IMG/VR virus record: IMGVR_UViG_3300009614_000107
Direction: 5' to 3' (one strand)
DNA: 28,484 nucleotides
DNA from: a virus
Taxonomy: Duplodnaviria > Heunggongvirae > Uroviricota > Caudoviricetes
This document shows positions 370 to 21,140 of the stretch, piece by piece. Position 1 is the first letter of the stretch. Each line of letters opens with the position of its first letter. Below the pieces are notes generated by a model. That model worked only from the letters and a program-made list of their open reading frames with translations. It did not search any database and had not been told where the DNA came from. Both the position numbers and the translations under genes were made by a program.

Positions 370-1341
370 TCACTGCTGTTGGAGTGGAATTATTGTCTCA
401 AAACGCCTCATTGTATTTCGGATTGAGACAGGTGTAACATTGAAAATGTAGCCAACATCATCCTGTGTGATATTGGTGTTCTGATTGCGGTGTAAGTAAA
501 ATGATGCTGCTGAGACAACAAATGGATTCTTGCCAATCATTTCCCTTTTGACTGCTTCGAGCTTAGTGAAGTCTATGGACTTAGACATAATGTCACGTAT
601 TTCGTCTTGTGGGATTTTCTTCTCTTCTGCATACTTGAGAAGTGCATCCTTCTTAGATGTGATTACCATCTCACACGTGATTTTGCAGGATTGAACCCCA
701 GCTTCCTTGGCATCCTTGACAGCATCGTAGAGGCATCTAATCTGATCGTGTCCATCGACTTTGCTGTATCGAGTATAAACATCTTTGAACTGGAGTGGTG
801 TTTCTGAGTTTGCTGGACACTTAGAGAGCAGATAGATTAGGGCAGCTATGGTAACATGGTATGCTCTTCCACGGAAGTTGGCAAGACCGATCTTCTCACC
901 AATCTCGTGCTTTAGGAACATCTTGTCCGACTCTGAGAAGTCATAGCATATTATATCAACAACATTTGAGATGTTGTCTGTCACGTGCCTAATTCGCTTG
1001 CGCTCTCTGCTCTTTTGGCTGTACTTAGGAAGCCTTGCTTTTTGCCTATCTCTGGTTTCTGTAAGCATTCTTTCTCTAGTTGCACGAAGTTCATCGTATC
1101 GATCAAGAATTGTCTGTCGCATTCCATCTTCAAGTTCTATGATGCACTTACCATTTATGAAATGGATTTTGATGCCTGGAATCTTGTTTACTGCTGTCCT
1201 TCGATGAAGTGTCTTGGACATATATTCTGGATCGTTGCAAACGACCTCATTCATTTTCTTGTTACCACGTACAAACTTTAAGATAATCTCGTCACGTGGT
1301 GTAATTCTCGGTGGTACTACTCCTTTTGGCATATTAGTCAA
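370..1341 (-). CDS. Transcription factor B (TFB/TFIIB)-like protein, two cyclin repeats, no N-terminal Zn ribbon
   Basis: FRGRAYHVTIAALIYLLSK resembles TFB repeat 1 (RGRS...AA.LY); GKNPFVVSAASFY...ITQDDVGYIFNVTPVSIRN resembles repeat 2 and its HTH (GK.P...AAA.Y...TQ.EVA....VTEVTIRN). Confidence 0.8.
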   Translation of the reverse strand: MTNMPKGVVPPRITPRDEIILKFVRGNKKMNEVVCNDPEYMSKTLHRRTAVNKIPGIKIHFINGKCIIELEDGMRQTILDRYDELRATRERMLTETRDRQKARLPKYSQKSRERKRIRHVTDNISNVVDIICYDFSESDKMFLKHEIGEKIGLANFRGRAYHVTIAALIYLLSKCPANSETPLQFKDVYTRYSKVDGHDQIRCLYDAVKDAKEAGVQSCKITCEMVITSKKDALLKYAEEKKIPQDEIRDIMSKSIDFTKLEAVKREMIGKNPFVVSAASFYLHRNQNTNITQDDVGYIFNVTPVSIRNTMRRFETIIPLQQQ

Positions 1342-1379: not shown

Positions 1380-2270
1380 TTATTGTTTCTTACTAGTGGT
1401 CTTTCCGAACTGTGTTTTGAGAGTGTCTTTCCAGTCCTTGTTGTCCTGTTCCTTTTTCTTTTTAATACGCTTGTCGATGAGTGTGGTCCAGTTGTACATT
1501 CCATCACGGACATACTTTGGAATCTTGTACTCTTCACGGTATATTTTTGGTGGACCACCATCTATCTCGATTACAGTAGCACCGATGCTTGGTGTGATGT
1601 TTGCTGATTTCTTTGCCATAAATGGAGTAGTATATTGCCAGCAACCATTTAGGATTCCCCAGACACCATTATCATCTTGGACGGAATAGAACCTGTGCTG
1701 GTGGCCACGAATGATAATATCTGGTCCATCAATTTTGTTTTTAGCAGCGTCCTTCTCAGACTGAAGCATTTCACGAATAATGTAGGAAGATGGATTGACA
1801 ATTGATACCGAGCCACCGTGTGTAGCCTGGATTTTTACAGTGCCTCTTCCATTGTTGTTGACATCAAACTCGAAGATATCTCCCATATATTGACCACCCA
1901 TACCTTCGAGAACCCTGCGATCTATGTTTGTCGCTTGACCAAGACCACCGTGATAGCCACTGCCATTCACACCAAAAACTGTGGTCTTGTTTGTAATCAT
2001 CTTGTCAAATAGTTCAATGACCATTTGGACTTGCTCATCTGTGTCTGTGACAAGTGCGTCTACACCTAAGTTTTTGGCTTGTGAACCGTCAGCTAAGTCA
2101 CCCATTGTTAAAATATAATCGGGTCCATTGTGTCGCTTACAAAGGTCAAGCCAGCATACGTGAATCCACTTTAAAAATTCGTTATTCCTGTCACGTGGCA
2201 CGGATGATGGTGATGCTAAACCATAGATTGAGCCAATATGTGTATCGCCAATGGCGATAATTTTTACCAA
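1380..2270 (-). CDS. Calcineurin-like metallophosphoesterase
   Basis: Motifs GDTHIG, MGDLADG, GSGYH (GNH variant), ATHG, RGHQH in canonical order. Confidence 0.85.
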   Translation of the reverse strand: MVKIIAIGDTHIGSIYGLASPSSVPRDRNNEFLKWIHVCWLDLCKRHNGPDYILTMGDLADGSQAKNLGVDALVTDTDEQVQMVIELFDKMITNKTTVFGVNGSGYHGGLGQATNIDRRVLEGMGGQYMGDIFEFDVNNNGRGTVKIQATHGGSVSIVNPSSYIIREMLQSEKDAAKNKIDGPDIIIRGHQHRFYSVQDDNGVWGILNGCWQYTTPFMAKKSANITPSIGATVIEIDGGPPKIYREEYKIPKYVRDGMYNWTTLIDKRIKKKKEQDNKDWKDTLKTQFGKTTSKKQ

Positions 2271-2959: not shown

Positions 2960-3105
2960 GCTTTACTGCACTTTACTTAACTGTACTTTACACCACTGTA
3001 CTCCACTGTACTGCACTATACTATTCTGCTTTGCTTTACTTTACTATACTTGACGTAACTTCACAGAACGATACTACACTCAACTTCACTAAACTTCTCT
3101 GCTTT
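2960..3105 (-). ncRNA. Two tandem 73-bp pentamer-repeat guide-like RNA units (putative VIPR-like guides A and B)
   Basis: Each unit on the minus strand is AAAGCAGA-(NN-AGT)x12-AAAGC (A 2960-3032, B 3033-3105). The array starts within the stop codon of the RAMP gene. Confidence 0.8.
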
Positions 3106-3670
3106 AAGACTTCTTTTTAACTGGCTCGAATTTGGCAACCTCAAACCTACCGTATTTTGGGCGATAAGTTCCGATGCCCTTCTCCTTGCCAGCTATCTCA
3201 AGAAGTTCCTTCAATGTTTCACCCTCTATCAAACTTTCGTCTGCTACTCTAAGGATGAAATCGAACTCCCAATCATTCCAAATTGGTCGAGCAATCGGTA
3301 CTCGGCCACGAGTTGCAGGAATTACTCCAAGACGAACATCCGTCTGGAAATCCTTCCCATTTTTGAACGGGATCTCGATTGGGAGAACTACAACGTTGGT
3401 TTTCATCATATCCTTGTAGGTTTTCTTTCCTCTGCCTGGGATAGTTTTGGAACTGCCAACATTGATCAGTGCGCCTTCGATATGATCTGAAGGCTGGTAA
3501 ATATCTCCTTTTACATTTTTATAGAGGCACTTTTGAACCTCTTCTGCTGGGTCAAAAACAGAACCACGAACCTTCTTTTTTGTGATGCTTAAAGCATCAA
3601 GAGGGTATCGGTTGTGCATAAGGGGAACGACTCCCCTTATCTTTACTGCATAGTCTAACAAATTATACAC
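3104..3670 (-). CDS. Stand-alone RAMP/Cas7-like protein (putative Vipr-like guide-binding effector)
   Basis: N-terminal strand VKIRGVVPLMH, central IYQPSDHIEGAL (cf. RAMP PYIPGSSLKGAL), C-terminal Gly-rich loop GIGTYRPKYGRF; flanked on both sides by pentamer arrays; no other cas genes in the window. Confidence 0.75.
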   Translation of the reverse strand: MYNLLDYAVKIRGVVPLMHNRYPLDALSITKKKVRGSVFDPAEEVQKCLYKNVKGDIYQPSDHIEGALINVGSSKTIPGRGKKTYKDMMKTNVVVLPIEIPFKNGKDFQTDVRLGVIPATRGRVPIARPIWNDWEFDFILRVADESLIEGETLKELLEIAGKEKGIGTYRPKYGRFEVAKFEPVKKKS

Positions 3671-3720: not shown

Positions 3721-3822
3721 GGTGGCTTCAAGTTTTGTTCAGCCACCCTTTACTTAACTTTACTTTACAGGACTTTACTCTACTCGACATTACTTAACAG
3801 CACATTACTATACTTGAGCAAG
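3721..3822 (-). ncRNA. Stand-alone pentamer-repeat guide-like RNA C with own promoter and 3' hairpin
   Basis: Minus strand TTGCT-(NN-WGT)x13 (pentamers 3752-3816)-AAAGG, then stem GGTGGCT/AGCCACC (3721-3727 and 3741-3747); promoter AATATTTATAAA at 3844-3855. 5' end estimated. Confidence 0.8.
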
Positions 3823-3843
3823 ATATGTTTTTCTTTTAACTTG

Positions 3844-3855
3844 TTTATAAATATT
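3844..3855 (-). promoter_or_regulatory. AATATTTATAAA promoter of guide-like RNA C
   Basis: Same motif about 23 nt upstream of the TTGCT leader, with no ORF following. Confidence 0.75.
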
Positions 3856-3928
3856 ATGATTTAAAAACTAACTAAGATGGGCTTTGCTTGATTGTGGTTA
3901 CAGAAAAACTGGAACCTATAGCGTTAGG

Positions 3929-4015
3929 CTACTTTTTCGCCTTTCGCCTATTATACGACTTGACATGAACGACCTTATTTTTTTGGTGTCGTGTGTACGA
4001 TTTTACGTGTGGCAT
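3929..4015 (-). CDS. 28-aa basic peptide, putative virion DNA-binding protein (missed by ORF track)
   Basis: MPHVKSYTRHQKNKVVHVKSYNRRKAKK*; internal HVKSY repeat; same AGGAGGGTAG RBS (4023-4032) as the capsid-like genes. Confidence 0.75.
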   Translation of the reverse strand: MPHVKSYTRHQKNKVVHVKSYNRRKAKK

Positions 4016-4064
4016 TTATTTTCTACCCTCCTTTACTAGCTGTCAGTCTAAATTAGAAACTTGT

Positions 4065-4100: not shown

Positions 4101-4307
4101 TTAAATCTTGTCAGATGACCTTGCAGCAACTGATATACCTACAAGTAAAGCTATAAGTACCAATATGCTGGCCATTACGTTGGCAGCCGATGTGAGGTTA
4201 GTTGAAGCAGCAGCCATAAATCCTAATGTAGCGATTAGAAGTACTACAGCTATAGCTACGACATATCCCAATATTGGTCGAGTTGTATCGAGCAGACCTT
4301 CTCCCAT
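4101..4307 (-). CDS. Putative major capsid protein of spindle-shaped virus type, copy 2
   Basis: 68 aa, two long hydrophobic helices joined by a short polar loop with an NLT sequon; RBS AGGAGGGTAG at 4315-4324. Confidence 0.65.
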   Translation of the reverse strand: MGEGLLDTTRPILGYVVAIAVVLLIATLGFMAAASTNLTSAANVMASILVLIALLVGISVAARSSDKI

Positions 4308-4410: not shown

Positions 4411-4617
4411 TTAAACCTTGTCTGCGCTGCGTGCAGCGACAGAGATCCCTATGAGTAGGGCAATCAATACCAAGATGCTCGCCATTACGTTGGCAGCAGA
4501 GGTAAGGTTTGCACTTGTTGCAGCCATAAAGCCTAGGGTAGCGATTAGCAGTACCACGGCAATTGCCACAACATAACCCAATATGGGACGTGTAGTGTCA
4601 AGTAGACCTTCACCCAA
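4411..4617 (-). CDS. Putative major capsid protein of spindle-shaped virus type, copy 1
   Basis: 63/68 aa identical to 4101-4307; TTG start; RBS AGGAGGGTAG at 4625-4634; TTTATAT box near 4698-4704. Confidence 0.65.
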   Translation of the reverse strand: MGEGLLDTTRPILGYVVAIAVVLLIATLGFMAATSANLTSAANVMASILVLIALLIGISVAARSADKV

Positions 4618-20202: not shown

Positions 20203-21060
20203 ATGGGTGTTAGACAAGGCGGTTGGGCTCCACGTCAGCCTCTATTGAGTAAAGACGTTTTGAACGCATTGAAGGAAGATCTCATTCCATTGTGGGATGA
20301 GGGATTGAGTGCAGAAGAAATAGCAGACAGACTGGAGTTCGGTAAGTACCCATATGAAGATTTGAAAACTTATCACGTTTGGTACTATAGAAAACAATTT
20401 GGTTGTCAGAAAAGAAAGGGTGGAATTGAGAAAGGAAAGCCACGTTATAATGTCAAGCCTGATGTTATTGAACCACCAACCATTCAGGAAATTGAAGCCA
20501 AATTGAATGAAGTCTATCCACTATTGAAAAACAATGCTGGTGCAACTGACCTCAACACATTGATGGTTAGAGCATACATCTGGTTGCACAGATACAGTCC
20601 ACTGAGAAAAAGTGAGATATATGAGAGGGAACTAGGTGACTTCTACATTGATGAGAAAGCAAAAATACTAACACTTCAGAACTTTATCAGGAAAAAGAAA
20701 TTAAAGGGTAAAGCAAAAGAAGCACCTTTCCTTATCCCCTTGGATTATCCACACGTGATGGATGAAATTGTCACCTATCTTGTAAGAAGGATTGAACGTA
20801 CACAGGATTCGAGTGCCAAGGCATTTCCAATGTCGGGTTGGGTTGCCTGGAACAGAATGAAGAAAGCCTTCCCAGATATGTACCCACACTACTGGAGATT
20901 CAAATATATCACAGAGTCTGCCAGTGACCCAAACGTCCCTATTGAAGATTTACTAGCAGATACTGATCTAAATTTACTGACTTTGAGGCGTTATATGATG
21001 ACGGGTGAAAGACAACGTTTGGCTTCATTACAGAGAAGGAAACAGAGAGAACTTGTTTAA
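20203..21060 (+). CDS. Tyrosine recombinase/integrase with N-terminal HTH
   Basis: Catalytic pattern R (PLRKSEI), K, HxxR (PHYWR), Y (TLRRY); N-terminal GLSAEEIADRL; GGTGA RBS. Confidence 0.8.
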   Translation: MGVRQGGWAPRQPLLSKDVLNALKEDLIPLWDEGLSAEEIADRLEFGKYPYEDLKTYHVWYYRKQFGCQKRKGGIEKGKPRYNVKPDVIEPPTIQEIEAKLNEVYPLLKNNAGATDLNTLMVRAYIWLHRYSPLRKSEIYERELGDFYIDEKAKILTLQNFIRKKKLKGKAKEAPFLIPLDYPHVMDEIVTYLVRRIERTQDSSAKAFPMSGWVAWNRMKKAFPDMYPHYWRFKYITESASDPNVPIEDLLADTDLNLLTLRRYMMTGERQRLASLQRRKQRELV

Positions 21061-21140
21061 AGTTCTCTTGTTTCGCTTTAGTTCACACCACTGTACTATA
21101 CTATACTTAACTTTACTCGACTAAACAGTACTAAAGCAAT
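21039..21140 (-). ncRNA. Orphan pentamer-repeat guide-like RNA D with own promoter and 3' hairpin
   Basis: Minus strand TTGCT-(NN-AGT-type)x11 (21080-21134)-AAAGC; hairpin 21039-21053 / 21061-21074 spanning the recombinase stop; promoter AATATTTATAA at 21161-21171. Confidence 0.8.

What the first reader, a model, noticed from the sequence alone, without database searches (positions are those of the whole stretch)
3752..3967. Guide C decodes to a variant of the adjacent 28-aa basic gene (21/26 nt gapped match)
Seen: NN series on the minus strand is CA AT AA GC TA AA CG AG AA CC AA AA TA. Codon positions 1-2 of the last 13 codons of ORF 3929-4015 (CAT GTC AAG TCG TAT AAT AGG CGA AAG GCG AAA AAG TAG) are CA GT AA TC TA AA AG CG AA GC AA AA TA. 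All 13 second positions match, and the stop codon is included. The guide reads H-I-K-A-Y-N-R-R-K-P-K-K-stop versus own HVKSYNRRKAKK-stop. This validates the NN-skip-1 code from within the window. Inference: the real target is the homologous structural gene of a related competing virus; autoregulation is an alternative.
Basis: partly seen in the sequence, partly recalled or inferred. Interest (0 to 1): 0.93.

Follow-up and report, generated by a model that had tools for sequence, protein, structure and literature searches.

The report
Archaeal-virus VIPR guide near-matching neighbouring gene
A peat-dwelling, probably archaeal virus carries a guide RNA of the already described VIPR gene-silencing system whose code nearly matches its own tiny 28-residue gene next door; it is most likely aimed at that gene's version in a rival relative, but that exact target was not found.

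Summary
Guide C (3755-3819, minus strand) matches the last 13 codons of ORF 3929-4015 at 21/26 under the skip-one rule (next best 17; p 0.0002-0.002 in four nulls). All five mismatches fall on first codon positions. The code is not new: ORF 3104-3670 is a Vipr protein (E 1e-17 to SUSP1 Vipr), and the rule is the published VIPR rule, here with an AGU/UGU anchor in place of GGY.

The 28-aa ORF is a real gene, conserved in two related viruses. Their alleles score 17 and 19/26, so no allele closer than self was found, although both carry the guide's Pro where self has Ala. Sister guide D does show the predicted pattern: 21/22 on two relatives' recombinase genes against 18/22 on self.

Best reading (0.7): a guide against a related virus's orthologue, with an imperfect own copy. 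Self-damping and a relic guide remain open. 'Structural gene' is unproven. The scan earlier noted the same guide-beside-near-target pattern in two other phages (unchecked notes).

The parts
3755..3819 (-). vrRNA C guide tract: 13 pentamer units (first unit GCT-NN, then AGT/TGT-NN)
   Evidence: identical in 7 other assemblies of this virus
3750..3754 (-). last AGT-AA unit, probably a fixed junction to the tail (does not match the site)
   Evidence: all four window guides end in AA; AA is the commonest last NN in the family; role inferred
3721..3747 (-). 3' tail hairpin, 7-bp stem; loop shared with the relative L005, whose stem differs in sequence but still pairs
   Evidence: two sequences only; z -1.9
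3844..3851 (-). archaeal-type TATA box for vrRNA C; likely start at G3819
   Evidence: sequence; spacing 32 nt here, 30 nt in guide D and L005; transcription not shown
3929..3967 (-). near-target site, last 13 codons incl. stop of the 28-aa ORF; 21/26 NN match
3929..4015 (-). 28-aa basic protein gene with two H-V-K-x-Y-x-R repeats; mostly missed by gene callers
   Evidence: homologues in L005 and L010; differences concentrated at third positions; RBS at 4023-4032 shared with the two upstream genes
4101..4307 (-). 68-aa hydrophobic protein, copy 2 (capsid-like by layout only)
   Evidence: conserved family; no PDB sequence or fold hit
4411..4617 (-). 68-aa hydrophobic protein, copy 1
3104..3670 (-). 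vipr gene (188-aa RAMP effector)
   Evidence: SUSP1 Vipr PDB 36pp, E 9.5e-8 single sequence, 1.2e-17 family profile
3031..3095 (-). vrRNA B tract (downstream array); no significant self match
2963..3022 (-). vrRNA A tract (downstream array); no significant self match
21078..21137 (-). solo vrRNA D tract, 17 kb from vipr; internal control for the model
20977..21009 (+). near-target of guide D (18/22) in the probable tyrosine recombinase 20203-21060
   Evidence: recombinase call inferred from invariant R/H/R/Y residues, no Pfam hit

Best explanation
Guide C is a VIPR RNA made from its own TATA promoter just upstream of vipr. Vipr subunits coat it, one per 5-nt unit, and present the NN pairs to double-stranded DNA, skipping every third target base (published mechanism; inferred here by homology). 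Its NN series was taken from the 3' end of the small basic gene of a related virus whose allele differs from this virus's allele. The complex would silence that late/structural-type operon in a co-infecting relative. The resident copy matches at 81% because it is an orthologue of the true target, and five mismatches presumably weaken binding to self. Shown: code, register, statistics, Vipr homology, gene reality, the pattern for guide D. Inferred: expression, binding, silencing, the existence of the closer allele for C, self-resistance, and a virion role for the peptide.
For: Match significant in four nulls. The orthologous site in L010 is also the best hit in that 17.7-kb locus (19/26, same register, stop included). 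Both relatives carry CC (Pro) at unit 10 like the guide, while self alone has GC (Ala); this is the mismatch nearest the tail among the scored units, the end from which the SUSP1 filament appears to assemble (10.64898/2026.04.26.720927). Sister guide D scores 21/22 on recombinase genes of two relatives (87% and 76% protein identity) against 18/22 on self, and no guide array was seen after those genes, one flank being only 114 nt. A related virus with the 68-aa gene occurs in the same peat run at about twice the depth (18.3-kb contig). Published VIPR guides target competing elements and match self less well than rivals.
Against: No allele better than self was found for C: relatives score 17 and 19/26; exact or relaxed patterns gave nothing or only chance hits of 20/26 or less in viral, metagenome and genome scans. 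Three of the five mismatches (units 2, 7, 8) are shared by self and both relatives, so they are not self-escape changes; the source must be a more distant lineage. 21/26 = 80.8% passes the 80% cut-off used to call natural targets in the VIPR paper, so self may be bound. Only two orthologues were sampled.
Confidence: 0.7

Rival explanations
1. Self-regulation: the imperfect guide damps or times the virus's own operon (two 68-aa genes plus the basic peptide), and guide D damps its own recombinase.
For: Two of four guides hit own genes at 80% or more, whereas the VIPR paper found no self hit at that level in three sets. Guide and site are unchanged across assemblies from several peat samples. Self is the best allele found for C.
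Against: For D, relatives match better than self. The site is at the very end of the operon, a poor place to regulate the upstream genes (inference). A self-regulator has no reason to decode to a different protein variant with family-type residues such as Pro at unit 10. None of 28 guides from seven other loci shows a comparable self match at this length.
Confidence: 0.13
2. Relic: the guide was acquired against an allele that is now extinct or rare (or against this lineage's ancestor before a gene swap) and has no present target.
For: No better target found in any collection. Guides A and B also lack targets in the loci held.
Against: Promoter, anchors and tail are intact; all mismatches spare second codon positions (chance about 0.02 given five mismatches), which random decay of the guide would not do. 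Sampling of this virus family is very thin.
Confidence: 0.11
3. The true target is an unrelated element or host gene with a similar basic V-K-x-Y-x-R repeat, and the self match is incidental.
For: Such repeats are widespread in unrelated proteins.
Against: The guide also matches the terminal Lys-Lys-stop spacing of this gene family; the unrelated proteins do not end that way.
Confidence: 0.04
4. Chance match of an A-rich guide to an A-rich gene end.
For: With other boundaries p rises to 0.02-0.17; AA is enriched in the last units of family guides.
Against: Nulls that keep the A-rich end still give p below 0.001; codon register, nearness, the independent hit on the L010 orthologue and the parallel case of guide D all agree.
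Confidence: 0.02

Closest known systems
VIPR systems (Vipr + vrRNA), exemplar Escherichia phage SUSP1 type II; 10.64898/2026.04.26.720920 and 10.64898/2026.04.26.720927; PDB 36pp
   Same: Homologous single RAMP protein; 9-16 pentamer units with variable NN; structured 3' tail; one guide upstream and an array downstream of vipr; 1-nt skip aligned to the wobble position; virus-encoded.
   Different: Anchor is AGU/UGU, not GGY (it fits the paper's alternative YNNNG consensus). The G-loop has Thr-Tyr-Arg where SUSP1 has Asp-Trp-Arg, whose Asp reads G1. Archaeal TATA promoters; 197-kb virus contig; no recognisable vap. Two guides reach 80% or more on own protein genes, which the paper did not see in the sets it tested.
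Solo and relative-directed vrRNAs of SUSP1-family phages; 10.64898/2026.10.15.759431
   Same: Guides aimed at close relatives, with self-match lower than rival match; recombinase targeted at near-invariant codon positions (as guide D).
   Different: There the self-versus-rival contrast concerns guides against vrRNA loci; here it concerns protein genes the virus itself carries, one of them a 28-codon gene. For guide C the better rival allele is not yet in hand.
Virus-borne mini-CRISPR arrays of archaeal viruses used in inter-viral conflict (Medvedeva et al. 2019, cited in PMC10541130; details from own knowledge)
   Same: Archaeal virus uses RNA guides against related viruses.
   Different: Contiguous spacers and host Cas proteins there; own effector and gapped code here.
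Fusellovirus VP1/VP3/VP2 module (SSV1; Huangdivirus in PMC10541130)
   Same: Two paralogous small hydrophobic genes next to a small basic gene.
   Different: No sequence or fold homology detected; peptide is only 28 aa; the genome contig is 197 kb.

Membership tests
VIPR | Vipr RAMP protein homologous to known Vipr | tested here: met
   only significant PDB hit is SUSP1 Vipr, covering thumb and G-loop
VIPR | RRM fold with thumb and G-loop in a structural model | tested here: inconclusive
   model from a shallow alignment failed (pLDDT 33)
VIPR | vrRNA of 9-16 pentamers with fixed triplet and variable NN (GGY or a related consensus) | tested here: met
   14 units in guide C; AGT dominates in the family; fits the YNNNG alternative
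VIPR type II (SUSP1-like) | GGY anchor and vap1-type partner gene | tested here: not met
   anchor AGT/TGT; neighbours are a membrane protein and a metallophosphoesterase
VIPR | Conserved structured 3' tail | tested here: inconclusive
   hairpin with shared loop in two viruses; too few sequences, pseudoknot not tested
VIPR | 1-nt skip rule with skip on the wobble position | tested here: met
   guide C; guide D, 21/22 on relatives
VIPR | No CRISPR array or other cas genes at the locus | tested here: met
   none in the window or the 10-kb flanks; the rest of the 197-kb contig could not be read
VIPR | vrRNA expressed, bound by Vipr, represses the target | not testable with these tools
   needs sRNA-seq, RNP binding and reporter assays
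VIPR | Assignment to one of types I-VII | not tested
   reference alignment and tree not available here
Spindle-virus VP1/VP3/VP2 structural module | Capsid protein as two-helix hairpin homologous to SSV1 VP1; VP2-homologous basic protein | tested here: inconclusive
   model is one long helix; no Foldseek or PDB sequence hit; no Pfam hit for the peptide; layout only

The most novel reading that the evidence does not exclude
The virus uses deliberately imperfect VIPR guides on its own genes as a built-in regulator (or as linked guide-plus-resistant-allele units that exclude sister viruses), in an archaeal VIPR branch with a re-coded AGU anchor.
Probability: 0.2. Interest if true: 0.72.

Novelty: new member of a known kind. 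Interest (0 to 1): 0.42.

Why it matters
It extends the VIPR skip-one code to an AGU-anchored, probably archaeal branch and gives natural matched pairs (self versus relative alleles) for measuring how many mismatches VIPR tolerates and how such viruses avoid silencing themselves, which the published work has not measured. The guide also flags a 28-codon gene that annotation misses as worth attacking. The mechanism itself is already described.

Tried and rejected
Exact gapped target: none in viral contigs, metagenomes or fetched loci. Relaxed and half patterns: none or chance hits only, out of frame or unrelated, at most 20/26. The viral collection holds no relative of this Vipr or of the 68-aa gene, so those blanks say little. 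Eight metagenome loci with 68-aa homologues were more distant or too short and showed no close orthologue of the peptide; L030 ends before it. No RNA holder listed. No whole genome held. The co-occurring relative's 18.3-kb contig could not be read beyond the aligned part. Vipr fold failed. Rejected: skips 0, 2, 3 and reversed reading; the idea that the Arg codon swaps at units 7-8 are self-escape changes, since both relatives share them; adjacency as proof of a cassette for C, since the guide sits in the same upstream-of-vipr slot that holds unrelated guides in L005, where the small gene lies 1.7 kb away.

Full report
1. Observation. The minus strand at 3750-3819 holds 14 five-base units with a fixed AGT/TGT triplet and a variable pair. 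Joining the 13 pairs of 3755-3819 with a one-base skip gives 21/26 at 3930-3967, the last 13 codons of ORF 3929-4015 including its stop; the next best site scores 17. The five mismatches (units 2, 4, 7, 8, 10) are all first codon positions. Four nulls give p of 0.0002, 0.0018, 0.0006 and 0.00025. The score is boundary-sensitive: 21/28 (p about 0.02) with the final AGT-AA unit and 19/26 (p 0.13-0.17) without the non-canonical first unit.

2. What the system is. ORF 3104-3670 matches SUSP1 Vipr (E 9.5e-8; family profile 1.2e-17). The VIPR preprint already establishes the NN-skip-one rule, its wobble alignment, repression of DNA targets, and action against competing elements, and lists YNNNG as an alternative repeat. 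The layout here, one guide upstream and an array downstream of vipr, mirrors SUSP1. The anchor is AGU; 30 of 33 family members have Thr-Tyr-Arg in the G-loop where SUSP1 has the Asp that reads G1, a plausible but untested cause of the shift. The element is a 197-kb contig seen in peat and wetland runs. TATA boxes and a TFIIB-repeat protein point to an archaeal host; the host was not identified.

3. The small gene is real. Orthologues lie after the same 68-aa gene in two related Vipr-bearing viruses, L005 and L010. Differences fall mostly on third positions (11 of 21 and 21 of 39) and a ribosome-binding motif precedes each. Its role is unknown. Two paralogous hydrophobic genes followed by a basic gene recall fusellovirus VP1/VP3/VP2, but no sequence or fold hit supports this, so 'structural' is an inference.

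4. Is there a better target? Not found. L005 scores 17/26 and L010 19/26; database scans gave nothing above 20, though these collections barely hold this family. The relatives are still informative. Both have the guide's Pro codon at unit 10, where self alone has Ala. At units 2, 7 and 8 they agree with self, so those differences are not recent self-escape; the guide came from a more distant allele. In L010 the orthologous site is the best hit in 17.7 kb.

5. Internal control. Following a lead from note e1-5625097, I tested solo guide D. It matches the adjacent probable recombinase at 18/22 (p 0.002-0.004) but matches the orthologues in two relatives at 21/22. Self differs by a silent Leu first-position swap and a Lys-to-Arg change.

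6. Mechanism and rivals. Most likely (0.7) guide C silences the orthologous gene of a co-infecting relative while the own copy is bound weakly. Self-regulation (0.13) cannot be excluded: both self matches exceed the 80% cut-off at which the VIPR paper saw no self hits, and mismatch tolerance is unpublished in the papers read. A relic guide (0.11), an unrelated target (0.04) and chance (0.02) are weaker. Adjacency is not strong evidence for C, since the same slot upstream of vipr holds other guides with the same tail in L005.

7. Novelty. The code, the effector and relative-directed guides with lower self-match are published. Earlier notes of this scan report the same guide-beside-near-target pattern in two other phages (not checked by me and not counted as evidence). 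New here are the AGU-anchored archaeal-type example, a 28-codon target gene, and testable self/rival allele pairs. Verdict: real, a new member of a known kind, interest 0.42.

Noticed in passing
window 21078-21137(-) and 20977-21009(+); L031:162-1016, L032:233-784: Solo guide D matches two relatives' recombinase at 21/22 and its own at 18/22; the cleanest natural target in this window.
   Followed up: yes
window 1380-2270(-); next to or one gene from vipr in L005, L007, L009, L010, L028, L029: A metallophosphoesterase gene stays linked to vipr across this family, upstream or downstream; a candidate accessory gene not among the vap functions named in the paper's text.
   Followed up: no
L005:10806-10855 versus L007:9302: An L005 guide scores 16/20 in frame on the conserved motif of another element's metallophosphoesterase; could be a guide against a rival VIPR locus, or chance.
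   Followed up: no
window 3023-3030 and arrays in L005, L007, L008, L028, L029: Guides in arrays are separated by an 8-nt spacer starting AGCAG that shifts the 5-nt register; a candidate processing site.
   Followed up: partly
L028:5300-6090, L007:10575-11080: The same AGU-anchored Vipr branch occurs on other element types (one with integrase and D5 helicase, one near a Cas1-family gene) with long arrays, some guides of 16-19 units.
   Followed up: no
L005:12492-12541, L010:11392-11426: Further short guide-like tracts directly after the metallophosphoesterase gene in two relatives.
   Followed up: no
window 370-1341(-): Virus-encoded protein with a weak TFIIB-repeat hit (E 0.001), conserved in position in L005 and L010.
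   Followed up: no
L024 (JAFMOA010002524.1, 197,240 bp): The window is identical to part of a 197-kb contig with 1391-aa and 2459-aa (laminin G) genes; very large if it is a spindle-type archaeal virus.
   Followed up: partly
window 3985-4016(+): A 13-pair hairpin followed by a T-run lies inside the first half of the 28-aa gene on the opposite strand.
   Followed up: no
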